This document shows, piece after piece, positions 4,389-64,000 of a stretch of 64,000 bases of DNA (its first letter is position 1; each line of letters starts with the position of its first letter). The stretch spans positions 18,060 through 82,059 of the forward strand of contig JBAZKN010000003.1 in the NCBI GenBank assembly GCA_041650755.1, given 5' to 3'. Below the pieces are notes generated by a model. That model did no database searches. It was given only the letters and a program-made list of their open reading frames with translations, and had not been told where the DNA came from. This DNA comes from Patescibacteria group bacterium. GTDB lineage: Bacteria > Patescibacteriota > Patescibacteriia > UBA1558 > GWA2-36-10. Made by a program: the position numbers and the translations under genes.

Positions 4389-5315
4389 TTGCAACAGATC
4401 ACAATGGCTAATTGGAAAAATATTCTCGAGGAACTAAATGCGAATGGAAGTAATTTTGATATTATTAGAAGATCTTATTTAAAAAAACTAAGCAAGTTAA
4501 CGGGTAGGAATGTAATCGCTTATTATAGTGGCTGGCTGCAGAAAAACGCACCGGATTTGCGTTTTTCTCTCTCTATTAATGACAATGATAAAAATGGTTT
4601 TATGAATGCGCTCGCTGGAGTGAATTGTAGCAAGGGCCTAGATTTAGTTCTTCATACTCCGGGTGGCGATGTTGCGGCTACTGAATCAATTATTGATTAC
4701 TTGAAAAGCAAATTTGAAGATATTAGAGTTATTGTGCCTCAACTTGCTATGTCTGGGGGCACTATGATAGCGTGCTGTGCCTCTAGGATTATTATGGGTA
4801 AACATTCAAGCCTTGGTCCAATCGATCCTCAAATTGGTGGCTTACCAGCCCATGGCGTTGTAGAGGAATTCCTGCGTGCCTATGAAGAGATAAAAGCCGA
4901 CCCTGTTAAGCAGGCAGTCTGGGCTCCAATTATACAAAAATATCACCCTACTTTTATTGGAGAGTGTGAGAAAGCAATTGAATGGTCACAAAAAATAGCG
5001 GAAAATTGTTTGCGAGACAGAATGTTTAAGGGTCAAGCTGATGCTAATGAAAAGGTAAAAAAGATAATTGATGAACTCACTGATCACTCAATTAGTTTAT
5101 CTCATTCTAGACATCTCTCGTTTAAGAAATGTAGTGAGCTGGGATTTATGGTTGATGATTTGGAGAGTGATAGTAAGTTGCAAGATGCTGTGCTTAGTGT
5201 GCATCATTCTTTTATTCATACATTAACATCGACCCCAGCGATAAAAATTATTGAAAATCATAATGGTGTAGCTTTCATACAAAGCGTGCCCCAATACTTA
5301 ATGAATAGAAACTAA
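4389..5315 (+). CDS. ClpP/crotonase-fold serine peptidase, S49/SDH-family-like
   Basis: 308 aa; LHTPGGDVAATESII and AMSGGTMIACCA segments resemble SppA/SDH Clp-fold peptidases; family assignment from memory. Confidence 0.5.
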   Translation: MQQITMANWKNILEELNANGSNFDIIRRSYLKKLSKLTGRNVIAYYSGWLQKNAPDLRFSLSINDNDKNGFMNALAGVNCSKGLDLVLHTPGGDVAATESIIDYLKSKFEDIRVIVPQLAMSGGTMIACCASRIIMGKHSSLGPIDPQIGGLPAHGVVEEFLRAYEEIKADPVKQAVWAPIIQKYHPTFIGECEKAIEWSQKIAENCLRDRMFKGQADANEKVKKIIDELTDHSISLSHSRHLSFKKCSELGFMVDDLESDSKLQDAVLSVHHSFIHTLTSTPAIKIIENHNGVAFIQSVPQYLMNRN

Positions 5316-6631
5316 ATCTGTAAAGTAATTTTTCGATTAATATAAACCAGCTTACTTTTCAGTAGCGACAACAACTCTCGTTTTTCCGAAATATTTCCAT
5401 TTTGCAGCAGATATTTGGCGTAGGTTCTTACGTCAATTTTTTTACCTTTAATTTTTTCAGGATTACCGCCGAGCACAGATGTTTGTAGATTGTTTAATCT
5501 TCTTACTTCATCCTCAAATTTCCCTTGAACTCCAAGTTGATCAATTTCAACCTTGTCAATTATTTTTGCCAATTCGTTTATGAGTGCTTCTTCCCTGATA
5601 TAAGTGTTTTTACATTCGGGGTTTTTGGCTCTGGTGCAACCGTAGTAAATATATTTGGCGGTCGTTCCGTCAGTCAATTTTTTGAATTTTTCTTGTCCGG
5701 TGATACTGGATCCGCACAGGCCACAAACCATGAGTTTGGTAAAGGCAAATTCTTTGTTTTTGGCGCCGCATGTAGCCTCGATTGTTTTGATGTTGGCTTG
5801 TGCCTGATCAAAAAGTTTTTGAGTGATAATCGGTTTGTGCTTTCCTTGATACCACTTGCCACTGTTTTTCGGGTACTCAAACATACCGTAGTAGAACGGG
5901 TTTCTCAGCAGATTATATATTCCGCTCAGAGCCAGGGTTTTTTGACCTCTGGTTTTAAAATTAAGATCAAACTTCAGCCAGTTGTATATCTTTCTACCGC
6001 TCCAACGCTCATTGGCGACTTTTTCGAATACTTGTTTGATTATTGGTGCGCGCAGGGGATCAACGATGATCTGGCACTTCTTATCCATTCGGTTTTGGTT
6101 CAGATAGCCCAAAGGCGCCATGCCTGGCCACAAACCCATTTCTACCCTCGTTCTCATGCCTCTTTTGACGTTTTCTCCGCGATGATCGTTTTCCAGTTTG
6201 GCGGTACTTCCCAAAATCATCAGCATGAATTTTTCATTTGGGTTATTGGTGAATGTTTGTCCGTGGGTTCTTATTTCCGCCAACAATCCTTGATCCATAA
6301 GATCGACGATGGCGCCTAAGTCACCGGCGTTACGACTTAAACGATCCGGCGCCCAAGTGATGATGCCGTTGAATCTGCCGGTTCTAATGTCACCCAAAAG
6401 CTCATTAAAGATTTCCCGCTGTCCCGTGTCCTTGGCCGAGTGACTTTCCCGTTTGATTTCAACAATATCCAAATTTTCCCGAACGGCAATATCCAACATT
6501 TCCTTAACTTGGGAATCGATGGACAGCACCTGGCGCTCCTCGGATTCCGTTGATTTTCTCGCGTAAAGGCAGTATTTGATTTTTTGTTCCGTTGTGGTTG
6601 CGTTTTCCATACAACAACATTGATGACGCAA
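5312..6631 (-). CDS. large serine recombinase (resolvase catalytic domain + recombinase domain + zinc ribbon)
   Basis: N-terminal YARKSTESEERQ..SIDSQ catalytic-serine context, DRLSRN, C-terminal CGLCGS..YYGC zinc ribbon; likely start MENATT at 6610; convergent with the protease gene. Confidence 0.85.
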   Translation of the reverse strand: MRHQCCCMENATTTEQKIKYCLYARKSTESEERQVLSIDSQVKEMLDIAVRENLDIVEIKRESHSAKDTGQREIFNELLGDIRTGRFNGIITWAPDRLSRNAGDLGAIVDLMDQGLLAEIRTHGQTFTNNPNEKFMLMILGSTAKLENDHRGENVKRGMRTRVEMGLWPGMAPLGYLNQNRMDKKCQIIVDPLRAPIIKQVFEKVANERWSGRKIYNWLKFDLNFKTRGQKTLALSGIYNLLRNPFYYGMFEYPKNSGKWYQGKHKPIITQKLFDQAQANIKTIEATCGAKNKEFAFTKLMVCGLCGSSITGQEKFKKLTDGTTAKYIYYGCTRAKNPECKNTYIREEALINELAKIIDKVEIDQLGVQGKFEDEVRRLNNLQTSVLGGNPEKIKGKKIDVRTYAKYLLQNGNISEKRELLSLLKSKLVYINRKITLQI

Positions 6632-6782
6632 CCCTTTCAGTGAGTCCAGAGTGGGTGATTAGGTAAGCTGTAGATAACTTTTTTTTGTAAGCCCGCATGT
6701 TTTTATTGACTTTTTGGCTTAAAAGTGGGAAAATTAAAGAAACAAATCGACACGGCGCTTTTATTTTTAACATATAAGCGCC

Positions 6783-7718
6783 ATGCAAATGCAAATGATA
6801 TTTATGACTCAAAAAAAGGTTAAAAAAACCGGAAAAAAAGACACCCTTACATTCATTGATCTGTTTGCCGGAATAGGAGGTTTTCACGTTGCCTTTCACA
6901 ATGCCGGAGCGGATTGTGTTTTTGTTTCGGAGTGGGATGAGTTCGCTCAAAAAACATACAGACACAATTTTTACAAAGTGTCTCCGGAGGTTTTCGATCT
7001 CGGCAATTTTGTCGGAGACATCACCAAGGTTGATCCGAAAAAAATTCCCGATTTTGACGTTTTGACCGCCGGGTTTCCTTGTCAGCCTTTTTCTCAGGCG
7101 GGATTTAAAAAAGGATTCAATGAAACTCGCGGCACTTTATTTTTCGATATCGCCAAAATAATAAAAGAAAAGAAACCAAAAGCTTTTTTTCTAGAAAACG
7201 TCAGAGGCCTGTACAATCACGACGGAGGCAAAACTTTCAAAACGATCAAGAGAATAATCACCGAAGACTTGGGTTATTCGTTTTTTTCACAAATCGTCAA
7301 AGCGTCCGATTTCGGTTTGCCGCAACACCGCCCACGTCTTTTCATGGTCGGATTTAAAAACAAGAAGATTGACTTTAAATTTCCCGAGCCCGCCAAAAGT
7401 CTGAAATACACCATGTCGGATATTTTCAAGGGCAAGTGCAACAAAGAAATCGGCTACACCTTGCGTGTGGGTGGTCGCGGAAGTAAAATTGACGATCGCA
7501 GAAATTGGGACGCATATATTGTCGATGGAAAGGTCGTTCAGCTCGGTCCGAACGAGGGATTGAAAATGCAGGGCTTTCCCGGTTGGTTCAAATTTCCTTC
7601 GGGGCTTTCTCCCGTGCAATCCATGAAGCAACTCGGTAATTCCGTTGCGGTACCCGCCATTGAGGCCGTTGCGGGAGAAATCGTCAAAACATTGAAAAAA
7701 TATGGGAACAAAAAATAA
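6783..7718 (+). CDS. DNA (cytosine-5)-methyltransferase
   Basis: Motif I FIDLFAGIGGF, motif IV GFPCQPFSQAG, motif VI ENVRGL, motif X QLGNSVAVP; likely start at M8 (6804). Confidence 0.9.
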   Translation: MQMQMIFMTQKKVKKTGKKDTLTFIDLFAGIGGFHVAFHNAGADCVFVSEWDEFAQKTYRHNFYKVSPEVFDLGNFVGDITKVDPKKIPDFDVLTAGFPCQPFSQAGFKKGFNETRGTLFFDIAKIIKEKKPKAFFLENVRGLYNHDGGKTFKTIKRIITEDLGYSFFSQIVKASDFGLPQHRPRLFMVGFKNKKIDFKFPEPAKSLKYTMSDIFKGKCNKEIGYTLRVGGRGSKIDDRRNWDAYIVDGKVVQLGPNEGLKMQGFPGWFKFPSGLSPVQSMKQLGNSVAVPAIEAVAGEIVKTLKKYGNKK

Positions 7719-8790
7719 CAAAGGCGAATGGTCGGAGTTATACGCATTTTTGAAAATTCTTGAAGAAAGAAAACTCTTCGCCGCGGACAAAAATTTGGAA
7801 ATAATCGAAGGAAAGTTTTTTGTGTTTCACAAAATCATCAGGGAAGAGAAAGATGAACCCGTGAAGATTTATGACATTTCCGAATCGCCGACGCAAATTT
7901 TGATCACAGACGAAAACGGAAAATTGTTGAAAGAATTAGATTCCGCCGGACTGAAAGAAAAAACTTTGAAGATTTTTAAAAAAATAAAGAGCGAGAAAAG
8001 CAGTTCTTTCGGGATTCCCGAAGCGAGCAAATTGATGAAGGAACTTCTGTGCACCAAGGTGAAAGCGGGCAGCGGCAAAAAAGCCGACCTGGTGGCCGTC
8101 ATTTACGACAGAATTTCAAATACCATGCCGATGTTGGGGTTTTCCGTCAAATCGATGGTGGGAGGAGCGTCGACTTTATTGAATCCGGGCAAGACAACAA
8201 ACTTCATTTACGAAATCAAAGGGTTCAAGGGCAATGTCGATGAAGTTAATCACATTGACACCAAATCTCAAATTCGGGATCGCGTGAGAAAAATCGTCGA
8301 GCAAGGCGGGTTGTTCGAGTATGTCGGCGTTTCAAATGAACAGTTTGAATTCAACATGAAAATGATCGATACGGCTTTGCCCGAGTTTGTCGCGCAAATG
8401 CTTTTCAATTTTTTCTCAAATTCCAACAGAACGATGTCGGATTTGACGGAAGAACTTTCCGGGGATGAGAACATAACCAAAAAATTCGGTTTGTCGCTGA
8501 CCAATTACGAATACAAAGTGAAAAATTTTCTGGATGCGGTGGCTTTGGGTATGGTTCCAAGCAAACCTTGGGACGGATTTTCAAAAGCCCACGGCGGCTA
8601 TATCGTCGTAAAACAAAACGGTGAAGTCGTTTGCTACCATCTTTACAACCGAGACGAGTTTCGGTCGTATCTGTACGAGAACACCAAGTTTGACGCCGCC
8701 AGTACGACTCGTTACGATTACGGCAAATTGTATGAAAGAGACGGGAGATTGTTTTTCAATCTTAACTTGCAAATCAGATTTGTGAAATAA
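7702..8790 (+). CDS. type II restriction endonuclease, HpaII-family-like
   Basis: 362 aa; overlaps the MTase stop by 17 nt and is followed by vsr, the same M-R-vsr order as the Haemophilus HpaII locus; N-terminal KGEWSELYAF; family membership recalled, not verified. Confidence 0.5.
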   Translation: MGTKNNKGEWSELYAFLKILEERKLFAADKNLEIIEGKFFVFHKIIREEKDEPVKIYDISESPTQILITDENGKLLKELDSAGLKEKTLKIFKKIKSEKSSSFGIPEASKLMKELLCTKVKAGSGKKADLVAVIYDRISNTMPMLGFSVKSMVGGASTLLNPGKTTNFIYEIKGFKGNVDEVNHIDTKSQIRDRVRKIVEQGGLFEYVGVSNEQFEFNMKMIDTALPEFVAQMLFNFFSNSNRTMSDLTEELSGDENITKKFGLSLTNYEYKVKNFLDAVALGMVPSKPWDGFSKAHGGYIVVKQNGEVVCYHLYNRDEFRSYLYENTKFDAASTTRYDYGKLYERDGRLFFNLNLQIRFVK

Positions 8791-13724: not shown

Positions 13725-14309
13725 TCAAGTCGCGGTTTCATGCCCGTCCAGTTTTCGGTCGGGTTTTGAATTTTCTTCATTTTTGTCATCATTCGACTTT
13801 TTTGTATTGTCATCGGGATTTTTGTTTTTCAAAGTTTTTTCGATCTTTACCTGCTTGTTCAAGTTCGGATCACGCCAAGCGATCATCATGTCTTTTATTT
13901 TTTCTAAGCGCTCATTGGTCAGCAGACCCGCTTGATCATTTACCTGAATCGCATGGTTGTGATTGTGGGTGACTTTTTCCACGAATTCTTTGCTTCTGGT
14001 TTTCAGCCAAAACAAGACATAAGTGGGAACGCCGTCTTTGATTCCCTGAATGACTCTGCTTTGCGCCATGTCCGATATCAGCAAGGTGCCTTCTTTGCAA
14101 GCGTCTCTGACTTCGGCGGCGAATTTCCGGTCTTCTTGTGTCCAGCGATAAAAAGTGGAGGGATTGATACCAGATCTTAAGCAAGCCGTTGCGATAATCG
14201 GATTTTTTCGCAGTTCTTCAAGCAAGTCTTTTTTTATTCGACTTTTTCTTTTTTTGACGGTGATGGCCCGAGTTTTTGTCGGGTCCTTTTTTGGTTTGTT
14301 TATTGTCAT
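13725..14309 (-). CDS. HTH DNA-binding protein, phage terminase small-subunit-like
   Basis: N-terminal HTH IIATACLRSGINPSTFYRWTQEDRKFAAEV resembling terS-type HTH; K/D/E-rich tail; 4-nt overlap with upstream ParB-MTase gene. Confidence 0.35.
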   Translation of the reverse strand: MTINKPKKDPTKTRAITVKKRKSRIKKDLLEELRKNPIIATACLRSGINPSTFYRWTQEDRKFAAEVRDACKEGTLLISDMAQSRVIQGIKDGVPTYVLFWLKTRSKEFVEKVTHNHNHAIQVNDQAGLLTNERLEKIKDMMIAWRDPNLNKQVKIEKTLKNKNPDDNTKKSNDDKNEENSKPDRKLDGHETAT

Positions 14310-15703
14310 ATTTTTTTAGTTAACATCGGTTGGTTTATTTTTTTCGGTTTTTGTCCGGTTGTTTTTTCCCATCTTCGCAAAATCACCTGGGCATACACCG
14401 GTGACTTTTCCATCAAAAAGCAACGGCGCTTCATGGCGGTGGCGGCTATGAGCGTTGAACCCGAACCCCCGAACGGTTCGATTATGATGTCGTCTCGTTT
14501 GGTCAGCACTTTGACATAGGGGATGAGTATTTCAACGGGTTTGGTGCCAAAGATTATACCTTGCCCCGATGACTTTTGATCATCGGCTTTGTAACTGATG
14601 AAATCTGTCGGACAGATTTTTTTACCTTTTTCATAGCCTTCCCAGTGCGGTTTGCCGGAGATGGCAAACAAAGCGTTTTCGTATTCTTGTTGAAGCAAAG
14701 AATCGGCTTCTTGATCAACATTCAGTTCAATATCACCTTCGGTTCCCACCAAAGCGATATCGTGCTTGTTGAAGAATCGATGCTTGGCGGAAAATCCCTG
14801 GGTGCGGTTGGGCAAATGCCAAACAATGGTGTTTCGGTATTTCCAGTGTTTCTCCAGCTCGTTCCATATTATTTTTAGATTCTTGGGATTTTCAAAAACA
14901 ATGATGGAAAAGTCCGGTTTTTGAATTTTGGCGATATTAGTCATCCAAAGTTCGGTGAAGTTGTCGGGCAAAATATCGGTTTCCAAATATCGGCGGTTTT
15001 TCTTCACGCCAAAGCCGGTGGTGACCCCGTCCTTTTGTTTGGTTTTGCCTTTGAGATAATCAAGCAGGTAAGGAGGATCGGTAAGACACATGTCGGCTTT
15101 TTCATTGCCCATGAGTTTCAGGACATCGGCTTCAACGGTGCTGTCGCCACACATCAGTCTTGAACCGTTCAGTTCGTAGATGTCGCCTTTTTGCACGGAA
15201 ATGTTTTTGATGTCCAGTTTTGCCAATTCCTTGTTTAAATCAAACATTTCCGGTTCGCTTTCGAGTCCGAAAATTTCGTCCAGTTCTTCCGAGGAAAAAC
15301 CAACGTCTGAAAGCAGCGATTCGTCAAACTCGGCAAGCAGGGAATAATCGAATTCGCCGACATTTTTATTCAACCTGATATTGAGCTCTTTTTCTTTCTT
15401 TTCGTCGGGAATGTTCACATATACCACCGGGACTTCTTTGTAGCCCAAAGCTTTGGTGGCTTTCAGGCGCATGTGACCTCCAATCAGAATATTTTTGCGG
15501 TTTTCGGCCCCGTTGGCAATCAGCGGATCGCACAAGCCGAAGCGTCGTATCGATTCGGTCAGTTGTTCCATGGCTTCTTTATTATGTTTGCGGGGATTAT
15601 ACTCCGCCGGTTTCAACGTTGAGATCGGTAAATGAATGATTTTAAGATTGTTTGTTTCAGTCATAATTTTTTGATTAATTTTTAGCGATAAATAAAACGA
15701 CAC
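14306..15703 (-). CDS. ParB-like nuclease domain fused to beta-class DNA amino-methyltransferase (N6-adenine or N4-cytosine)
   Basis: N-terminal ParB/Srx motifs (LKPAEYNPRKH, IGGHMRLKA); motif IV CLTDPPY precedes motif I FGGSGST (beta-class order). Confidence 0.8.
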   Translation of the reverse strand: MSFYLSLKINQKIMTETNNLKIIHLPISTLKPAEYNPRKHNKEAMEQLTESIRRFGLCDPLIANGAENRKNILIGGHMRLKATKALGYKEVPVVYVNIPDEKKEKELNIRLNKNVGEFDYSLLAEFDESLLSDVGFSSEELDEIFGLESEPEMFDLNKELAKLDIKNISVQKGDIYELNGSRLMCGDSTVEADVLKLMGNEKADMCLTDPPYLLDYLKGKTKQKDGVTTGFGVKKNRRYLETDILPDNFTELWMTNIAKIQKPDFSIIVFENPKNLKIIWNELEKHWKYRNTIVWHLPNRTQGFSAKHRFFNKHDIALVGTEGDIELNVDQEADSLLQQEYENALFAISGKPHWEGYEKGKKICPTDFISYKADDQKSSGQGIIFGTKPVEILIPYVKVLTKRDDIIIEPFGGSGSTLIAATAMKRRCFLMEKSPVYAQVILRRWEKTTGQKPKKINQPMLTKKI

Positions 15704-17615: not shown

Positions 17616-18866
17616 TTACCCTCCAAATTTCCAGGTGACACCGGCCGAGATGACATGAACGTCGACTTCGTATTTTCCCGGTGCCAGGAAGCCGAAGTGT
17701 TTTTCAACTTCTCTTTTACCCCAGCCGTAGGTATAGCCGAGATCGAAATCCAAGTTGTCGTTCGGTCTGTATCCAAGGCCGAAAGAAATTCCCGGGCCGT
17801 CCACTTCCGGTGCGGTCGGCGTGGTGGTTTCCCGCGGAATGGCCGCGGTATGCCAGCAGACGCCGCTTCTCAAAAGCCACTTTTCGGTCAGCTCGTACTC
17901 GGCGCCGAGATGGAAGCTGAAGTTGTCATGCCAATTCAGCTTTTGGCCGTATTCAAGCAGCTCGCCGATTTTGGCCGTCATCTGTTTGGCCGCCGAATAG
18001 TCGTACCAGTTGGCGTCAGCCAGAATTCTCAACCTGTTATTCGGTTCAAACTTCAAGCCGAGTCCGAGTCTTCCCGGAAAGTAGACCGAAGCGGTCATGC
18101 CGTATTTTCCAAGAGGCAAGCCCAGCAGCTCCGGCTTGGTTGATCCTTTCAGGCGGACCTCCATGGGCAGACTGTAGGACGCGCCGACAGTCCATTGGTC
18201 GTTGAGCCGGTAGAGAATTCCGATTCCGCCACCCAGTCCGATGCCGTCAGCTTCAGCTTCCATACTTGCCATGTCCAGTCGAAAGTTTCCAAGTTGGAGA
18301 CTGCCGGCATTGATAAACTGGGCGTAGCCGATATTCAGGCTCAGTCCGACGGAGAGTTCATTATTGACCCGGTAGGCCATTGCCGGAACCAGCGAAGTCA
18401 GACTCAGCATTCCTTCTTTCCAGGGAAAGTCGCCGTCATACTTGCTGCCAAGACCGCCAACAACGTGCCAGCCCGCTCCAATCGTCAACCGGTCGTTCAG
18501 GCGTGTGGAAAATCCGCCGAAAGGCAGAGGGATGATTCCTCCCTCCGAATTTTTGGATAATTCTCGGCCGCATTCCGACCACTGATATGTCCCTTCGGCG
18601 ATAATTGATTCCATTCCGAGTTGTAGTGAAGTACGCTTGATGTTGCTTAACCCCGCAGGGTTGTAGTAGAACGCCGAAGCGTCTACCGGATCGGCGATTT
18701 GAGCACCGCACATTCCCATGGCTCTGGGACCGACACTGCCGCTGACGCGGTTGACTCCTCCGGCTATTGCCGAATTGACGGTCAACAAGACCAGCATAAA
18801 TACCGCAATCGTTATCTTTTTCATCGTTTGTCCTCCCTTGGTAAAGGGTTTCGGTTTAAGGTTCAT
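17616..18866 (-). CDS. FadL/TodX-family outer-membrane transporter for hydrophobic compounds
   Basis: Signal peptide MKKITIAVFMLVLLTVNSAIA (probable start 18824 preceded by AGGGAGG RBS); glycine/aromatic-rich beta-strand pattern and C-terminal WKFGG barrel terminus typical of the FadL/Toluene_X family; GC-rich. Confidence 0.7.
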   Translation of the reverse strand: MNLKPKPFTKGGQTMKKITIAVFMLVLLTVNSAIAGGVNRVSGSVGPRAMGMCGAQIADPVDASAFYYNPAGLSNIKRTSLQLGMESIIAEGTYQWSECGRELSKNSEGGIIPLPFGGFSTRLNDRLTIGAGWHVVGGLGSKYDGDFPWKEGMLSLTSLVPAMAYRVNNELSVGLSLNIGYAQFINAGSLQLGNFRLDMASMEAEADGIGLGGGIGILYRLNDQWTVGASYSLPMEVRLKGSTKPELLGLPLGKYGMTASVYFPGRLGLGLKFEPNNRLRILADANWYDYSAAKQMTAKIGELLEYGQKLNWHDNFSFHLGAEYELTEKWLLRSGVCWHTAAIPRETTTPTAPEVDGPGISFGLGYRPNDNLDFDLGYTYGWGKREVEKHFGFLAPGKYEVDVHVISAGVTWKFGG

Positions 18867-59741: not shown

Positions 59742-59842
59742 AACCTAAAAATCTGCTAAATTACTGCGAGTTAATAAATAGGGTCACGTAACCAAGTGGT
59801 AAGGCATGGGTCTGTCCCTCGACCCCGCACAAATTTAAATAT

Positions 59843-59917
59843 GGCCTGGTAGCCAAGTGGTAAGGCATGGGTCTGCAAAACCCTCATCCGGCGGTTCGAT
59901 TCCGCCCCAGGCCTCCA
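59843..59917 (+). tRNA. tRNA-Cys (anticodon GCA)
   Basis: 75 nt incl. CCA; acceptor GGCCTGG/CCAGGCC; anticodon loop CTGCAAA; T-arm GGCGG-TTCGATT-CCGCC. Confidence 0.7.
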
Positions 59918-60024
59918 TAATTTTAATGACTCGGGATCCTCGCAACCAGATGGGCTCACTTCGTTCGTCTCATCGTTGCGGGACAAAACCCTTATTCACC
60001 GGTTCAATTCCGCCCGTGACCTCC

Positions 60025-60047
60025 ATCGAGCTTAGCTCGATTTTTTT
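60025..60047 (+). terminator. rho-independent terminator ending the tRNA-Cys locus
   Basis: ATCGAGC-TTA-GCTCGAT perfect hairpin followed by TTTTTTT. Confidence 0.75.
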
Positions 60048-60099
60048 GATACAAAAAAACTGGGCTTGAATTGCCTTCAAACCCAGATATTGGTCTCGC

Positions 60100-60759
60100 T
60101 CATACACCAACCAATGTACTTCTAAGCTGATCAATGATCTCCAAAAATTCTTGCCCACGTATGCTAAAATTACGCTTAGCGTAATTTTTTGACACTCTCT
60201 CATCGGCCAAAAGCGTAGACAAAGAATTAATAGGGTCTTTCCTTTCTGGGCTACCGCACCATCTAACAGCAAAAAAACTATTAAACCCCCTAAAACGAGC
60301 CGAATTTTGTGCCAACCAACTAGCCGAGTGCCACCTGACATTGGCCAAAGTAGCTACCATGGGGTAGTCTGCCAAACGAACACCCCTTATGGTAAGGCCG
60401 GAAGAAACCACATCATCCAACACCACTATATTGGCTATTCCTATATAAAACCGCTCGGAATAAACAATTTTCCGACACTCCACAATCGGACCTTTATCGG
60501 ACCAGTACCGCTTGGCATATATACTAATATTATGCCAACGATCAAGCCAGCCGTCCGGCAAATAACTTTTAACAATACTGGCGCCGTTGCCAGGCAAAAC
60601 AAGCAGGGTGTCTTGAGGGGAAAACCTGCGCCAAGCTTCCCATCCCAACAAGTTCTTGGTCAAATCTTCCGCCCAAACCAGCTCCAAATCAAATGAACTA
60701 AAACTATTCTGCCATTTTCTAGATACACCCGGTACGTCGATGATGATGTGGTTAGCCAT
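60100..60759 (-). CDS. phosphoribosyltransferase-domain protein
   Basis: PRPP-binding motif IVVLDDVVSSGLT; 219 aa; GC-richer than neighbours. Confidence 0.55.
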   Translation of the reverse strand: MANHIIIDVPGVSRKWQNSFSSFDLELVWAEDLTKNLLGWEAWRRFSPQDTLLVLPGNGASIVKSYLPDGWLDRWHNISIYAKRYWSDKGPIVECRKIVYSERFYIGIANIVVLDDVVSSGLTIRGVRLADYPMVATLANVRWHSASWLAQNSARFRGFNSFFAVRWCGSPERKDPINSLSTLLADERVSKNYAKRNFSIRGQEFLEIIDQLRSTLVGV

Positions 60760-60806
60760 TTCTGACCTCCTTTTTCGAGAATTATTGTAAAGAACAAAAA
60801 CACGAT

Positions 60807-61337
60807 CTATATTAATGTCTCTTCGGCTATCTTTATAGCCAAATCAACAGCTTCTTTTGCGTTTAAAGTAACGTAACTTGGATAATCTTTGGGTAAGCTG
60901 TCAAATAAATTTCCTAAAATACTTTCACCAAAGTCTTTAATAAAAATGAGCGGCTTTCTATAACGATAGGCTATAGCTAGTTCTGCTATCGTACCTGCAT
61001 CGCCAGGAAGAACTATAATAACATCTGCACTTAAAATGCCGGCAAATAAATAATCGCCAACATCCATGGGAGTACAAATCTCAACAGTCACAAAATCATT
61101 GCTTGTCAATCTGTTTCTGCCTGGTGTGCCAACTGTAATACCGCCATTCTCAAATGCTCCGCGACAGGCTGCCTCCATTACGCCGCTACATCCACCGGTA
61201 ATCAAAATTGCCCCAGCTTGTGCTAGTTGCTTGCCCATGGCAAAAGACATATCTAACATGGTTTTGGCTGAATTATTTTTAGGTAAATTCTTTTTTTCTG
61301 GGCCAATAATGCCAATTTGTAATTTTCTTTTCTGCAT
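60807..61337 (-). CDS. LOG/TIGR00725-family Rossmann-fold nucleotide-binding protein
   Basis: ITGGCSGVMEAACRGA and PGDAGTIAEL (LOG-like GGGxGxM and PGGxGTxEE motifs). Confidence 0.6.
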   Translation of the reverse strand: MQKRKLQIGIIGPEKKNLPKNNSAKTMLDMSFAMGKQLAQAGAILITGGCSGVMEAACRGAFENGGITVGTPGRNRLTSNDFVTVEICTPMDVGDYLFAGILSADVIIVLPGDAGTIAELAIAYRYRKPLIFIKDFGESILGNLFDSLPKDYPSYVTLNAKEAVDLAIKIAEETLI

Positions 61338-61409
61338 ATTATTTATTTACAAATTAAAAAACTCCCTCCATCGGGAGAGAGCTGCTTTTATTTCTAAAAA
61401 TAGACCAAA

Positions 61410-61733
61410 TCAAAGCAATCCTTTCCCGGGGGAGGGATTTCTGTGGTGAGAATTTAATTCCTGCCAAACAGAATTATAACCACCACGGCCATTTTTTAAC
61501 CAAAAGGCGACTCGAGCTACTGTGGTAGTGCTAGTTTTCATTCTTTTAGCAATATCTCGGTAGGATAAACCTTTTTGTAAATAAGTCACAATCCGCCAAC
61601 GATCGCGCATATCTTTGAGCTCTTGAATAGTGCATAAATCACGAAAAAATGCCTCACAGTCGGCTATGTTTTTGAGGCTTAAAACAGCTTTAAACAATTC
61701 ATCGCTACGCTTATCAAATTTGAAATCGTTCAT
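61410..61733 (-). CDS. TrpR/YerC-YecD-family HTH protein
   Basis: 107 aa; RWRIVTYLQKGLSYRDIAKRMKTSTTTVARV HTH typical of Trp-repressor-like YerC family. Confidence 0.6.
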   Translation of the reverse strand: MNDFKFDKRSDELFKAVLSLKNIADCEAFFRDLCTIQELKDMRDRWRIVTYLQKGLSYRDIAKRMKTSTTTVARVAFWLKNGRGGYNSVWQELNSHHRNPSPGKGLL

Positions 61734-61889
61734 ATGTCTGTATTAATGTATTAATACATTATCACAAAATAAAATGCTTGTCAAGTGCAAACAAAAAACC
61801 AGCGATTTTAGCTAGTTCGTACAAAGGTACCGGCAGTCTGACTTGCCACCGCGCAGCGGGGTCCCGCTTCGCGGGAAACCCAAATTTTG

Positions 61890-61976
61890 TGGTACCGGCG
61901 GTCGGACTTGAACCGACACACCCTTGCGGGTACAGGATTTTAAGTCCTGCGTGTCTACCAATTCCACCACGCCGGC
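61890..61976 (-). tRNA. tRNA-Leu (anticodon UAA), class II
   Basis: 87 nt incl. CCA; GCCGGCGTGGTGGAATTGGTAGACAC..; anticodon arm CAGGA-CTTAAAA-TCCTG; long variable arm; T-arm GTCGG-TTCAAGT-CCGAC. Confidence 0.85.
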
Positions 61977-62065
61977 AGGATTATAGGTAAAAAAATGGAG
62001 CGAGTGACCCCTCGACTCCGCTCGGGATCGATACTTATTTAAACGTCCTACTGCAATCATCACAG

Positions 62066-62317
62066 TCTTCGACATCCTGAGCTTGTCGAAGGATGGAGCG
62101 AGTGATCCATTCGGCTCACTCCGTTCGCTCAGGATCTTTTGTTGGCAATTAATGCCATCAATTTATTTTTATCTTCGACATCCTGAGCTTGTCGAAGGAT
62201 GGAGCGAGTGATCCATTCGGCTCACTCCGTTCGCTCAGGATCTTTTGTTGGCAATTAATGCCATCAATTTATTTTTATCTTCGACATCCTGAGCTTGTCG
62301 AAGGATGGAGCGAGTGA
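62066..62317. repeat. 106-bp tandem repeat array (2.4 copies) abutting and overlapping the 3' end of tRNA-Gly; degenerate partial copy at 61995-62029
   Basis: Units start at 62066, 62172, 62278 (identical by eye); each unit ends (tRNA orientation) with TCACTCGCTCCA = tRNA-Gly acceptor 3' strand + CCA and contains nested inverted repeats (CTTCGACA/TGTCGAAG; ATCCTGAGC/GCTCAGGAT; GAGCGAGTGA/TCACTC..GCTC). Confidence 0.8.
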
Positions 62318-62382
62318 CCGGGCTCGAACCGGCGACCTTTTCCTTGGCAAGGAAACGTTCTAGCCAACTGAACTACACTCGC
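62306..62382 (-). tRNA. tRNA-Gly (anticodon GCC)
   Basis: 77 nt incl. CCA; acceptor GCGAGTG/CACTCGC; D-arm GTTC-AGTTGGCTA-GAAC; anticodon arm TTTCC-TTGCCAA-GGAAA; T-arm GCCGG-TTCGAGC-CCGGT. Confidence 0.85.
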
Positions 62383-62529
62383 TCGATATAAAATTTATTT
62401 ATAATGAATCAGGGCTATTAATGTATAAAACACAAGTATTATACAATAAAACCACAAAAAGTCAACCCTATTTACCCTTGTCTAAACCCCTATAAATGGT
62501 ATGATAAAATAAAGAAATAAAAGCAAAAT

Positions 62530-64000
62530 ATGCCCGGCAAACAAAAAAAACTAGTAATAATTGACTCCAATGCCTTGCTCCACAGGGCCTGGCATGCCGT
62601 GCCGCCACTATCCACCAAAGATGGTCTAGTAGTCAATGCAGTATTTGGTTTTACCTCTTTACTCTTAAAAACAATATCTGAACTAAAACCTGATTATATC
62701 CTGGCAGCTTTTGATCTGGCAGGAAAAACTTTCCGCCACGAAGAATACGCTGATTATAAAGCGCAACGTATCAGGCAGGCTCAAGAATTTTATGATCAAA
62801 TTCCTTTGGCCAAAGAAGTGCTGGCTGCTTTTCATATACCGGTGATCACTAAAGAGGGCTTTGAGGCTGATGATGTTATTGGCACTATCGCCAACACTGT
62901 TTACAAAAAATACCCAACTATCCAGACCATTATCGTCACTGGAGACTTGGATGCCTTGCAATTAGTCAATGACAAAATAAAAGTTTTAACTCTCAAGCGC
63001 GGCTTCAATGACACTATTGTTTATGATGTAGCAGCTATCAAAGAGCGCTATGGTTTGACACCAAAACAATTGATAGACTTCAAAGCTCTACAAGGAGATA
63101 GTTCGGACAATATCAAGGGTGTCAAAGGTATCGGCGAAAAGGGCGCGAGCGATTTAATCGGGGAGTTCGGCTCTTTGGATAATTTGTACAAAAAAATTGC
63201 ACAAGCAAAAATCAAGGATAGAATCAAAGAATTATTGACTAAATATAGAGCCGAAGCCCTGGCTAGCCGTAAGCTAGTCAGCATTGTGACTGATCTTCCT
63301 CTGGCTTGGAAATTGACCGACGCCGAATGGCACCAATTTGACCCCGAGGATGTTTATCAAATTTTCCAAAAATTTGAATTTAACTCCCTACTCAAGAAGG
63401 TGCCCGGCACAAAAAAAGAGCACCAGATGTCTTGGGAGATATCCCAACCCAGCAAAAATCATAATTATCAAATTATCGATAGCCTGGCAGCTTGGAAAAA
63501 ATTATTAGCCGAGCTAAAACAACAAAAAATATTTTCTCTAGATACCGAGACCAGCGGCCTGGATCTTTTCAACGATTATCTTTTGGGCATCTCTTTGTCT
63601 TGGCAAGATCAGTCTGCTTATTTTATAAATTTGAAAAATCAGGATTTAAAATCTTTGGTGCTAAAAAATTTACAGCCGATTCTAGAAAATCCAAACATCA
63701 AAAAAGTTGGCCACAACATAAAATTTGATTATAAAGTTTTGAAATTACTGGGCATAGAAATCAAAGGTTTGGAATTTGACACCATGATAGCTGCCTACTT
63801 GATAAACCCCAACCGGGGTTTGAGACTGGAGGAACTGGCCTTTGCTTATTTGGGCTACCGCAAGCTAAAATTAAGCGATTTACTGCCGAATCAAACGAAA
63901 AAAAAGGACATAGAGGTGGCTGGCATACCCTTGGAAAAACTGGGTTGGTATGCCTGTGAAGATGCCGATATTACTTGGCGGCTTTACCAAAAAATCCTAC
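62530..64000 (+). CDS. polA: DNA polymerase I, N-terminal part (5'-3' exonuclease and 3'-5' exonuclease-like domains), truncated by window end
   Basis: LVIIDSNALLHRAWHA 5'-nuclease start, GVKGIGEKGA helix-hairpin-helix, FSLDTETSGLD exo I motif; open to the end of the window; short ORFs listed inside it on either strand are shadows. Confidence 0.9.
   Translation, partial: MPGKQKKLVIIDSNALLHRAWHAVPPLSTKDGLVVNAVFGFTSLLLKTISELKPDYILAAFDLAGKTFRHEEYADYKAQRIRQAQEFYDQIPLAKEVLAAFHIPVITKEGFEADDVIGTIANTVYKKYPTIQTIIVTGDLDALQLVNDKIKVLTLKRGFNDTIVYDVAAIKERYGLTPKQLIDFKALQGDSSDNIKGVKGIGEKGASDLIGEFGSLDNLYKKIAQAKIKDRIKELLTKYRAEALASRKLVSIVTDLPLAWKLTDAEWHQFDPEDVYQIFQKFEFNSLLKKVPGTKKEHQMSWEISQPSKNHNYQIIDSLAAWKKLLAELKQQKIFSLDTETSGLDLFNDYLLGISLSWQDQSAYFINLKNQDLKSLVLKNLQPILENPNIKKVGHNIKFDYKVLKLLGIEIKGLEFDTMIAAYLINPNRGLRLEELAFAYLGYRKLKLSDLLPNQTKKKDIEVAGIPLEKLGWYACEDADITWRLYQKIL

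What the first reader, a model, noticed from the sequence alone, without database searches (positions are those of the whole stretch)
61820..62382. tRNA-Leu/tRNA-Gly locus decorated with tRNA-3'-end-containing tandem repeats
Downstream (in tRNA orientation) of tRNA-Gly are 2.4 identical 106-bp tandem units. Each terminates in TCACTCGCTCCA, the tRNA-Gly acceptor 3' strand plus CCA, and each folds into nested hairpins that mimic an acceptor/T-arm minihelix ending in CCA. A diverged partial unit (61995-62029) sits between the array and tRNA-Leu. A degenerate copy of the tRNA-Leu T-arm/acceptor 3' end (about 61825-61855, GGTACCGGCAGTCTGACTTGCCACC versus GGTACCGGCGGTCGGACTTGAACCGAC) follows tRNA-Leu. 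Perfect identity between units implies very recent amplification. The candidate explanations are reiterated att sites from serial integration or excision at tRNA-Gly, a tRNA-derived SINE/MITE-like element, or a processed small-RNA array using the tRNA-like end for RNase P/Z or CCA-enzyme recognition.
Basis: seen in the sequence. Interest (0 to 1): 0.6.

Follow-up and report, generated by a model that had tools for sequence, protein, structure and literature searches.

The report
tRNA-linked repeat array in a CPR bacterium
Between two tRNA genes of an uncultured Patescibacteria bacterium lies a real, recently amplified 106-bp repeat whose units each end in a copy of the tRNA-Gly tail; it has the same architecture as the long-known but still unexplained "tRNA-linked repeats" of E. 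coli, so it is a new example of a known oddity, not a new kind of system.

Summary
On the minus strand, tRNA-Gly(GCC) is followed by two identical 106-nt units, one diverged 98-nt unit, then tRNA-Leu(UAA). All three units end in TCACTCGCTCCA, the tRNA-Gly 3' end. A decayed tRNA-Leu 3' end lies 65 nt past tRNA-Leu.

Related genomes have only 4-15 nt between the two tRNAs, so the array is a lineage-specific insertion into a conserved two-tRNA operon. Each unit is an inverted pair of GC-rich hairpin modules around an AT-rich core, plus 12 nt of tRNA end. The module family is widespread, multi-copy and usually in inverted pairs, which is REP/REPIN-like behaviour.

The closest known class is the E. 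coli tRNA-linked repeats (TLRs; tyrT/rtT). I reproduced their architecture here, but there is no sequence homology.

Most likely history: a small hairpin-bounded segment inserted at the tRNA-Gly 3' end and duplicated that end. The segment was then amplified by unequal recombination between 40-nt repeats. It is probably transcribed and trimmed as spacer RNA.

No integrase, dispersed copies, phage/plasmid match or canonical tRNA-like minihelix was found. Copy number from short reads is uncertain.

The neighbouring tRNA-Cys sits inside an older tRNA-Cys gene, which marks a tRNA recombination hotspot.

The parts
62438..62465 (-). Promoter-like site TTGACT-16-TATAAT of the tRNA-Gly/tRNA-Leu operon
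   Evidence: It matches 11 of 12 consensus positions. The same sequence, TTGACT..TTGTATAATACTTGTGTTT, is conserved upstream of tRNA-Gly in L210, L214 and L086.
62383..62425 (-). 43-nt lineage-specific insert in the leader, between the conserved promoter segment and tRNA-Gly
   Evidence: In L210 and L214 the tRNA starts directly after TATAATACTTGTGTTT(T/C)A(C/A). In the window 43 extra nt intervene.
62306..62382 (-). tRNA-Gly(GCC), with CCA encoded
   Evidence: ARAGORN; Rfam tRNA 67.6 bits.
62200..62305 (-). Unit 1 (106 nt). It contains hairpin module H1 (62278-62305), an AT-rich core with a small hairpin, hairpin module H2 (62210-62242) and a copy of the tRNA-Gly 3' end (62200-62211).
   Evidence: TRF, the repeat finder, folds, alignment A1.
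62094..62199 (-). Unit 2 (106 nt), identical to unit 1. H1 is 62172-62199, H2 is 62104-62136 and the tRNA-end copy is 62094-62105.
   Evidence: 100% identity.
61996..62093 (-). Unit 3 (98 nt, diverged). It has the identical H1 (62066-62093), an unrelated core, the hairpin module gatccc-GAGCGGAGTCGA-ggggtc (62006-62029) and the tRNA-end copy GGTCACTCGCTCCA (61996-62009). A T7 tract follows.
   Evidence: Alignment A1, module scan, terminator-like call at 62011-61997.
61890..61976 (-). tRNA-Leu(UAA), with CCA encoded
   Evidence: ARAGORN; Rfam tRNA 59.8 bits.
61862..61876 (-). Triloop hairpin TCCCGC-GAA-GCGGGA. It starts a ~35-nt module that also occurs next to tRNA fragments in L085, L086 and L211.
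   Evidence: This is the only exact copy in the window. Relatives are shown.
61826..61851 (-). Decayed copy of the tRNA-Leu T-loop and acceptor 3' strand (CAAGTCAGACTGCCGGTACC)
   Evidence: 18 of 20 positions match, chance expectation 0.00. It is absent downstream of tRNA-Leu in relative L004.
61796..61818 (-). Terminator-like hairpin plus T-run that ends the tRNA operon

Best explanation
**What it is.** This is a tRNA-linked repeat (TLR)-type array in a Patescibacteria (CPR) genome.

**Ancestral state (shown by relatives).** A conserved promoter drove tRNA-Gly(GCC), then 4-15 nt, then tRNA-Leu(UAA), then a terminator.

**Origin (inferred).** In this lineage a short segment was inserted right after the CCA of tRNA-Gly. 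The segment is bounded by two inverted copies of a widespread REP-like hairpin module. The insertion left a second copy of the last 12-14 nt of the gene. The distal copy, at 61996-62009, still carries a T-run downstream flank like the one that follows tRNA-Gly in L210 and L086.

**Amplification (inferred).** A 106-bp segment bounded by the 40-nt direct repeat (tRNA end plus hairpin H1) was later duplicated in tandem. The mechanism was unequal homologous recombination or replication slippage. That gave the two identical units.

**Fate of the RNA (inferred, by analogy with E. coli TLRs).** The array lies inside the operon, so it is transcribed with the tRNAs. Each 40-nt block re-creates the exact sequence context of the tRNA-Gly 3' processing site. 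The spacer is therefore predicted to be cut into by-product RNAs of about 106 nt ending in ...CUCGCUCCA.

**Function.** No separate function is shown. The default reading is a tolerated scar of recombination at a tRNA hotspot.
For: - **Array and repeated tRNA end.** These are confirmed.
- **The array is an insertion.** The Gly-to-Leu spacer is 4 nt in L214, 15 nt in L210, 131-156 nt in L086, L085 and L211, and 329 nt in the window. The promoter is conserved.
- **The distal pseudo-end keeps a native-type flank.** CCA is followed by a T-run there, as after the real tRNA in L210 and L086.
- **Units share ends but not cores.** H1 is identical at 28 of 28 positions and the end at 12 of 12, while the ~36-nt cores are unrelated.
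- **The two modules of a unit are inverted relative to each other.** GCUCAGGAU pairs with AUCCUGAGC in the minimum-free-energy fold.
- **The module family is widespread and REP/REPIN-like.** The H1 core 17-mer occurs in at least 120 IMG/VR contigs, and a sister 18-mer in 101. Of 200 loci, 93 carry at least 2 copies. Neighbours within 200 nt are inverted 61 times and direct 17 times.
- **The same hairpin follows another tRNA-Gly.** In L080 it sits directly after the CCA of a tRNA-Gly(UCC), with a compensatory stem change.
- **The E. coli precedent was reproduced.** The tyrT/tyrV locus has a 178-bp repeat in 3.1 copies, and the last 19 nt of tRNA-Tyr occur 6 times. The class definition and the processing of some members come from PMC8144298.
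Against: - There are no expression or processing data.
- The identity to the tRNA end is 12-14 nt here, against 18-19 nt in E. coli.
- There is no sequence homology to RtT (positive control).
- The mosaic pattern of identical ends and unrelated cores would also arise if units 1/2 and unit 3 were separate insertions of related mini-elements.
- The T7 tract after unit 3 looks like a weak terminator inside the operon.
- The exact copy number rests on a short-read assembly. An independent MEGAHIT contig simply stops inside the array.
Confidence: 0.55

Rival explanations
1. The array arose by serial site-specific or transpositional insertion of small non-autonomous elements (REPIN/MITE/CIME-like) at the tRNA-Gly 3' end. 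Each unit is then a separate insertion flanked by the 12-nt att or target duplication. Units 1/2 and unit 3 are related elements with the same ends but different cores.
For: - The layout is DR-E-DR-E-DR-E'-DR, with imperfect terminal inverted repeats TCC(A)TTCG...GCTCAGGAT.
- The ends are conserved while the cores are unrelated.
- The module family behaves like REP/REPIN elements elsewhere.
- Neighbouring tRNA genes show clean insertions. A 169-nt insert carrying an intact tRNA-Cys splits an older tRNA-Cys exactly at G34|C35. In L085 an 18-nt direct repeat of the tRNA-Gly 5' end flanks a hairpin/promoter insert.
- Nine of nine insert junctions begin with TCC.
Against: - No tyrosine integrase, RAYT or transposase was found among the 20 mid-size ORFs scanned. 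The only recombinase is a serine recombinase 55 kb away.
- No further copy of the unit or its modules occurs in 64 kb.
- There are no phage, plasmid or viral-contig matches to the unit.
- Direct-repeat lengths differ between events (0, 5, 12-14 and 18 nt), unlike a single transposase.
- Perfect identity of units 1 and 2, including the repeat, is more simply explained by unequal crossover.
Confidence: 0.25
2. The array is a functional small-RNA or tRNA-mimic array. Each unit yields an RNA whose tRNA-like CCA end is recognised by RNase P/Z, the CCA-adding enzyme, a synthetase or a tRNA-targeting toxin. The RNA would act as a decoy or regulator.
For: - The 40-nt block is strictly conserved in all three units while the rest diverged.
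- Some E. coli TLRs are processed and bind Hfq and CsrA (PMC8144298).
- The 621-nt region folds better than shuffles overall (z = -7.2), although that region includes two real tRNAs.
Against: - The unit-level hairpins are not better than shuffles.
- The predicted helix pairs part of the NCCA tail and lacks a T-loop.
- The Rfam tRNA model finds nothing in the units at E<=10.
- The array is absent from all five syntenic relatives, so it is not conserved.
- Most E. coli TLRs still have no known function.
Confidence: 0.1
3. The tandem duplication, or its copy number, is an assembly artefact. The genome really has one unit (40 + 66 + 40 nt) or a different number of units.
For: - The two units are perfectly identical, and the 252-bp repeat is longer than typical short reads.
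- An independent k141 MEGAHIT contig of 75,654 nt ends at window position 62201, inside the array. A Logan contig ends in tRNA-Leu.
Against: - A single unit with only a 40-nt repeat would not break a k=141 graph, so the break argues for a repeat of at least 141 nt or a copy-number polymorphism (inference).
- Unit 3 and all four tRNA-end copies are unique in context, and they stand regardless of the copy number of units 1 and 2.
Confidence: 0.1

Closest known systems
E. coli tRNA-linked repeats (TLRs), e.g. the tyrT/tyrV 178-bp repeats encoding rtT/RttR RNA (Egan & Landy 1978; Rudd 1999; Stenum et al. 2021, PMC8144298)
   Same: - The repeats lie inside a tRNA operon, directly downstream of a tRNA gene.
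- Each ends in a copy of that tRNA's 3' end including CCA.
- There are one to five per locus, and the rest of the unit is unrelated to the tRNA.
- I reproduced the E. coli case here: 178 bp in 3.1 copies, with the 19-nt tRNA-Tyr end present 6 times.
   Different: - There is no sequence or covariance-model similarity: RF00391 hits E. coli four times and the window not at all.
- The identity to the tRNA end is 12-14 nt, not 18-19 nt.
- The unit is 106 bp and is built from an inverted pair of REP-like hairpin modules.
- The host is a Patescibacteria genome.
- Transcription and processing are untested here.
REP / BIME / REPIN elements (repetitive extragenic palindromes; REP doublets mobilised by RAYT transposases, Bertels & Rainey 2011; from my own knowledge)
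   Same: - The modules are short GC-rich intergenic hairpins with a conserved core and variable stem.
- They typically occur as inverted doublets separated by tens of nt. Here that is H1...H2 with 9-bp long-range pairing; in viral contigs the count is 61 inverted against 17 direct neighbours.
- They are multi-copy in many contigs.
   Different: - The module is not high-copy in this 64-kb window: it occurs only in the array.
- No RAYT gene was seen.
- REP insertion is not known to duplicate 12 nt of target.
- The module sequence matches no Rfam family.
attL/attR duplications from integrative elements that target the 3' part of tRNA genes, and their integrase-less derivatives (CIMEs) (Williams 2002; from my own knowledge)
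   Same: - Direct repeats made of the tRNA 3' end flank the inserted DNA.
- The gene-proximal copy keeps the tRNA intact, and the distal copy keeps a native-type T-run downstream flank.
- Tandem accretion at one site is known for such elements.
   Different: - The inserted DNA is only 86-94 bp and carries no genes.
- No integrase is adjacent.
- No matching phage, plasmid or viral contig was found.

Membership tests
tRNA-linked repeats (TLR class, defined by architecture) | Located in a tRNA (or rRNA) operon, immediately downstream of the tRNA gene and on the same strand | tested here: met
   The units start at the base after the CCA of tRNA-Gly and fill the space up to tRNA-Leu. Both tRNAs are on the minus strand behind one conserved promoter.
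tRNA-linked repeats (TLR class, defined by architecture) | The 3' end of each repeat is identical to the 3' end of the upstream tRNA (18-19 bp in E. coli) | tested here: met
   The match is 12 nt (units 1 and 2) or 14 nt (unit 3) including CCA, against a chance expectation of 0.07. This is shorter than the 18-19 bp given for E. coli. The 19-nt E. coli repeat was verified.
tRNA-linked repeats (TLR class, defined by architecture) | Transcribed as part of the tRNA precursor and released by processing at the repeated 3'-end sequence | not testable with these tools
   Only promoter and terminator consensus scans are available. There are no RNA data.
RtT RNA (Rfam RF00391), the homology-defined E. 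coli family | Match to the RtT covariance model | tested here: not met
   There is no hit at E<=10 in 701 nt or in 5 kb. The positive control gave 4 hits of 133-138 bits in E. coli L209.
tRNA-like minihelix (substrate mimic for RNase P or the CCA-adding enzyme) | A coaxial helix of about 12 bp (7-bp acceptor plus 5-bp T-stem), a 7-nt T-loop, and a single-stranded NCCA 3' tail | tested here: not met
   The predicted fold is a 4+6-bp helix interrupted by a 5-nt bulge. It pairs U and the first C of the NCCA tail and leaves only CA free. It has no GGUUCGA-type loop. Its z-score is -1.7. There is no Rfam tRNA hit.
REP/REPIN elements | Inverted doublet of a short conserved palindromic module | tested here: met
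   H1 (UCC-UUCGACAAGCUCA-GGA) and H2 (GAUCC-UGAGCGAACGGAGUGAGCCGAA-UGGAUC) are in opposite orientation and pair over 9 bp.
REP/REPIN elements | Many dispersed copies in the same genome and a cognate RAYT transposase | tested here: not met
   Within the 64-kb window the modules occur only in the array. No Y1 transposase was found among the 20 ORFs scanned. The rest of the genome was not available.
tRNA-targeting integrative element (att duplication) | An integrase gene and cargo lie between direct repeats made of the tRNA 3' end | tested here: not met
   The direct repeats are present, but only 86-94 bp lie between them. The neighbours are housekeeping genes (YerC-like, LOG-like, PRT-like, PolA). 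The only recombinase is a serine recombinase at 5312-6631.
tRNA-derived SINE/MITE | The element body derives from a tRNA and is dispersed at many loci | tested here: not met
   Only the last 12-14 nt, plus a degenerate T-arm position, relate to the tRNA. No dispersed copies were found.

The most novel reading that the evidence does not exclude
tRNA genes in this Patescibacteria lineage may be the preferred targets of a hairpin-bounded mini-element with REPIN-like TCC...GGA termini. On this reading the element inserts at or into tRNA genes and carries or regenerates the displaced tRNA segment. In the extreme case it carries a whole replacement tRNA-Cys, nested in the anticodon of the resident tRNA-Cys gene. 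The 106-bp array would then be a tandem accretion of such elements at the tRNA-Gly 3' end. This would give a mechanistic origin for tRNA-linked repeats, which have been unexplained since 1978.
Probability: 0.2. Interest if true: 0.65.

Novelty: new member of a known kind. Interest (0 to 1): 0.4.

Why it matters
tRNA-linked repeats have been known in E. coli since 1978. According to the one review-like source I could read (PMC8144298), most of them still have no known function or origin.

An architecturally equivalent array in a Patescibacteria genome, unrelated in sequence, suggests the phenomenon is general and not an enterobacterial quirk. Here the relatives preserve both the 'empty' state (a 4-15-nt spacer) and intermediate states. 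The origin is therefore visible: insertion of hairpin-bounded DNA at the tRNA end, followed by unequal recombination.

The same 2.6-kb cluster also holds a tRNA-Cys nested within a tRNA-Cys, pseudo-tRNAs with a swapped T-arm, and a variable gene islet. tRNA genes may therefore be major recombination anchors in these tiny genomes.

The practical consequences are modest. The array is a caution for tRNA and small-ORF annotation, because its 42-aa ORFs look like translated repeats. It also breaks short-read assemblies.

Tried and rejected
- **Genome scan for two tRNA-Gly ends 70-100 nt apart.** The 66 hits were mostly from Lentisphaerota/Victivallales. In the one such locus checked, the two ends are tandem complete tRNA-Gly genes; no tRNA was called at the match in the other five loci scanned.
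- **Metagenome scan for the tRNA-Gly end plus the hairpin loop.** Only one informative locus came back (L080). The other four hits were chance matches in coding sequence.
- **Viral-contig scans.** The full H1 gave 0 hits. The triloop-hairpin module gave one chance hit in GC-rich coding sequence. That count alone is near chance, though the flanks show a real GGC...GCC hairpin motif.
- **blastn of two units against phages and plasmids.** Nothing significant was found.
- **Rfam.** No family matches the units or the widespread module.
- **Literature searches.** Searches by sequence strings and by the peptides these repeats would encode found nothing relevant. Papers on group I introns in Patescibacteria tRNAs do not apply, because no RF00028 hit occurs here.
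- **Synteny through the YerC-like gene.** This mostly failed: its relatives have other neighbours. Synteny through PolA worked.
- **The 42-aa ORFs at 62083-62211 and 62189-62317 (+).** I considered them as a tpr-like gene. I set them aside without a database test, because they have a TTG start, no Shine-Dalgarno sequence, and their sequence is the translation of the hairpin modules.
Full report
**1. The observation**

The region was read directly. ARAGORN and Rfam place tRNA-Leu(UAA) at 61890-61976 and tRNA-Gly(GCC) at 62306-62382, both on the minus strand and both with an encoded CCA.

Tandem Repeats Finder reports 62066-62317 as 2.4 copies of a 106-bp unit with 100% matches. The 12-mer TCACTCGCTCCA covers the last T-stem base, the acceptor 3' strand, the discriminator and CCA. 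It occurs four times on the minus strand, against 0.07 expected by chance.

A 40-nt block is present three times without a mismatch. It consists of this 12-mer plus a 28-nt hairpin, which I call H1.

Read in the tRNA direction, the layout is:
- promoter-like site (62465-62438, 11 of 12 consensus positions)
- a 43-nt leader
- tRNA-Gly
- unit 1 (106 nt)
- unit 2 (106 nt, identical)
- unit 3 (98 nt)
- T7 plus 12 nt
- tRNA-Leu
- 13 nt
- triloop hairpin TCCCGC-GAA-GCGGGA
- a decayed tRNA-Leu 3' end (18 of 20 positions, chance 0.00)
- a terminator-like hairpin
- a YerC/YecD-type gene

Unit 3 shares H1 (28 of 28) and the 3' end (12 of 12) with units 1 and 2. It also shares GATCCYGAGCG, but its ~36-nt core is unrelated (alignment A1).

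**2. The minihelix claim**

Folding the unit's 3' part gives an interrupted helix: GAGC/GCUC stacked on GAGUGA/UCACUC, with a 5-nt bulge. It pairs U and the first C of the NCCA tail and leaves only CA free.

It has no T-loop motif. Its energy is not unusual (z = -1.7; 15 of 200 shuffles fold as well). H1 and the unit-3 hairpin are likewise unexceptional (z = -1.5 and -1.4).

The Rfam tRNA model does not touch the units at E<=10, even in a 701-nt search. So the units end in the tRNA's tail, but they are not convincing tRNA mimics.

**3. Organism and independent assemblies**

The adjacent YerC-like protein is 100% identical to an NCBI protein from a 'Patescibacteria group bacterium' MAG.

An independent ENA MEGAHIT (k141) contig of 75,654 nt is identical to the window from 57410 and stops at 62201, inside the array. 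A Logan contig stops inside tRNA-Leu.

A break at that point is what a repeat of at least 141 nt, or a copy-number polymorphism, does to a k=141 graph. A single unit with only a 40-nt repeat would not cause it. This is my inference, and the contig end is 4-10 nt from the ideal branch points. The exact copy number therefore remains uncertain.

**4. Relatives show that the array is an insertion**

Synteny through the neighbouring PolA gene recovered five related loci with the tRNA-Gly/tRNA-Leu pair. The Gly-to-Leu spacer lengths are:

| Locus | Spacer (nt) |
|---|---|
| L214 | 4 |
| L210 | 15 |
| L086 | 131 |
| L085 | 139 |
| L211 | 156 |
| window | 329 |

The promoter TTGACT...TTGTATAATACTTGTGTTT is conserved, and in L210 and L214 it abuts tRNA-Gly directly. 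So the ancestral operon was compact, and the array is lineage-specific inserted DNA.

In the window, the distal tRNA-end copy (61996-62009, GGTCACTCGCTCCA) is followed by a T-run. The real tRNA-Gly in L210 and L086 is followed by a T-run too. The intact gene in the window is followed by H1 instead.

A simple tandem duplication that started inside the tRNA would put the same sequence after both copies. The first event is therefore better described as an insertion right after the CCA that duplicated 12-14 nt. The perfect 106-bp duplication is most simply explained by later unequal recombination or slippage between the 40-nt repeats.

**5. What the units are made of**

H1 is UCC-UUCGACAAGCUCA-GGA. 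H2 in units 1 and 2 is GAUCC-UGAGCGAACGGAGUGAGCCGAA-UGGAUC. The equivalent in unit 3 is (GAU)CCC-GAGCGGAGUCGA-GGG(GUC).

H1 is the inverted short form of the same motif. The two modules pair over 9 bp in the minimum-free-energy structure. Each unit core therefore has imperfect terminal inverted repeats, TCC(A)TTCG...GCTCAGGAT.

The motif is not private to this genome:
The sister 18-mer CCTGAGCGAAGTCGAAGG occurs in 101. I estimate single-digit chance expectations, but that rests on my guess of the collection's size.
- In 200 of those loci, 93 carry two or more copies. Neighbours within 200 nt are inverted 61 times and direct 17 times.
- Only 1 of 227 occurrences is within 150 nt of a tRNA.

That is REP/REPIN-like behaviour. 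No Rfam family matches, and I found no paper by sequence or peptide strings.

In the 64-kb window, modules with stems of at least 6 bp occur only in the array.

One metagenome contig (L080) has the same hairpin directly after the CCA of a tRNA-Gly(UCC). Its stem is CCAUCCC/GGGAUGG where the window has CAUCCU/AGGAUG, which is a compensatory change. An inverted second module follows.

**6. The known precedent**

[quoted passage not shown] There are 22 in ten loci, with one to five per locus. Their hallmark is that 18-19 bp of their 3' end are identical to the 3' end of the upstream tRNA or rRNA. Most have no known function. Three rRNA-linked members are processed and bind Hfq and CsrA, and RNase E recognition of the repeated end has been proposed (PMC8144298).

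I reproduced the type case:
- At the tyrT/tyrV locus of K-12, TRF finds a 178-bp repeat in 3.1 copies.
- The last 19 nt of tRNA-Tyr occur six times.
- The record annotates rttR and tpr.
- Rfam RtT hits four times.

The window's array meets the architectural definition with a shorter identity of 12-14 nt. It has no homology to RtT.

**7. Mobile-element and phage links**

The genes around the array are housekeeping genes: PolA, YerC-like, LOG-like, a PRT-like 219-aa protein, IMPase, RarA and trigger factor.

Pfam scans of 20 mid-size ORFs found one large serine recombinase (5312-6631) beside an HpaII restriction-modification system, 55 kb away. They found no tyrosine integrase or transposase.

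The unit has no significant match in phage or plasmid collections or in viral contigs.

**8. The neighbourhood is a tRNA recombination hotspot**

This was noticed in passing, but it bears on mechanism.
- **Nested tRNA-Cys.** tRNA-Cys (59843-59917) lies inside a 169-nt insert (59815-59983). That insert splits an older tRNA-Cys gene exactly between G34 and C35. Deleting the insert in silico makes ARAGORN call a 75-nt tRNA-Cys(GCA). The outer gene's acceptor (GGTCACG) resembles the tRNA-Cys of relatives (GGCCACG). The insert starts with TCCCTCGAC and ends in an H2-like hairpin ...GCGGGA.
- **L211.** A full pseudo-tRNA-Gly has its T-arm replaced by TCCCGC-GTT-GCGGGA.
- **L086 and L085.** These have shortened versions, plus 12-nt 5' fragments of tRNA-Gly and tRNA-Leu followed by the same triloop hairpin.
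- **Junctions.** All nine insert junctions I listed begin with TCC.
- **Variable islet.** The genes between tRNA-Cys and tRNA-Leu differ completely between the window, L085 and L086, and are absent in L214.

These facts keep a mini-element or site-specific insertion model alive. However, the direct-repeat lengths (0, 5, 12-14 and 18 nt) are inconsistent with one simple transposase.

**9. Verdict**

The array is real. It is best filed as a new, non-homologous member of the tRNA-linked-repeat class. Its likely history is insertion of a REPIN-like hairpin doublet at the tRNA-Gly 3' end, followed by recent unequal-recombination amplification.

Co-transcription and trimming into by-product RNAs are inferred. 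An independent function is unproven and is not supported by conservation.

My confidence in this reading is about 0.55. For the rivals it is: serial insertion of mini-elements about 0.25, functional tRNA-mimic RNA about 0.1, and copy-number artefact about 0.1.

Noticed in passing
window 59782-60025 (+): The intact tRNA-Cys(GCA) at 59843-59917 sits within a 169-nt insert (59815-59983). The insert splits an older tRNA-Cys gene (halves 59782-59814 and 59984-60025) exactly between G34 and C35 of the anticodon. ARAGORN calls the outer gene once the insert is removed in silico. Inner and outer genes are 63 of 75 identical. The outer D- and T-stems are weakened. There is no group I intron hit.
   Followed up: partly
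L211:1400-2120 (-), L086:1800-2350 (-), L085:1850-2400 (-): Relatives carry pseudo-tRNA-Gly copies in which the T-arm is replaced by a triloop hairpin TCCCGC-NNN-GCGGGA. The copy in L211 is full length. L086 has a minihelix-like remnant, GCGAGTGTAGTT + hairpin + TCACCCGCT. L085 and L086 also have 12-nt 5' fragments of tRNA-Gly and tRNA-Leu followed by the same hairpin. The window has this hairpin once, at 61862-61876, next to the tRNA-Leu fragment.
   Followed up: partly
window 62073-62095, 62179-62201, 62285-62307, 62006-62029; IMG/VR loci L215-L414: A hairpin module with a conserved core (U)GAGC(UU/GAA)GUCGA(A) and variable stem is very widespread. The exact 17- and 18-mers occur in at least 120 and in 101 viral-collection contigs. 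The module is often multi-copy and preferentially in inverted pairs (61 against 17). It is not tRNA-linked there and matches no Rfam family. It behaves like a REP/REPIN-type element that I could not find described.
   Followed up: partly
window 59917-61890 versus L085:134-1996, L086:1334-1955, L214:893-961: The segment between tRNA-Cys and tRNA-Leu carries entirely different genes in each relative. The window has PRT-like, LOG-like and YerC-like genes. L085 has MarR-like, flavodoxin-like and unknown genes. L086 has no called gene, though I read one small unannotated ORF there. L214 has nothing. This is a variable islet bounded by tRNA genes.
   Followed up: partly
L210:560-1000 versus window 61780-62530: In the closest PolA relative (68% identity), the whole promoter-Gly-Leu-terminator cassette is inverted relative to PolA. 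The breakpoint lies right at the conserved PolA promoter segment CCCTTGTCTAAA.
   Followed up: no
window 61362-61438: A near-perfect long palindrome of about 77 nt sits at the 3' end of the YerC-like gene, between it and the LOG-like gene. It produced spurious miRNA-precursor hits on both strands and several terminator-like calls.
   Followed up: no
window 62083-62211 and 62189-62317 (+): Each unit junction creates a 42-aa TTG-start ORF (MSKDGASDPFGSLRSLRIFCWQLMPSIYFYLRHPELVEGWSE) antisense to the tRNAs. It has a weak promoter-like site upstream (62142-62169 and 62248-62275). It is probably a translated repeat, comparable in position to E. coli tpr, but it was not tested against protein databases.
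   Followed up: no
window 5312-8790 and 14306-15703: A large serine recombinase (Resolvase + Recombinase + Zn_ribbon_recom) lies next to an HpaII-type C5-methylase/endonuclease pair and near a ParB-N6/N4 methylase fusion. This is a likely mobile restriction-modification islet, unrelated to the tRNA array.
   Followed up: no
window 17616-18866 (-): One ORF is a confident FadL/TodX-family outer-membrane beta-barrel (E = 7.6e-52). That is unexpected for a Patescibacteria genome, since these bacteria are thought to lack an outer membrane. It could be horizontal transfer or a chimeric or mis-binned contig.
   Followed up: no
L085:134-240 (+), L080:2340-2425 (-): In relatives, long perfect hairpins start within the tRNA's own 3' end. 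In L085, CUCCA pairs with UGGAG in a 24-bp stem after tRNA-Cys. In L080 a 14-bp stem includes the CCA. Sequestering the CCA end in the 3' trailer seems recurrent in these tRNA loci.
   Followed up: no
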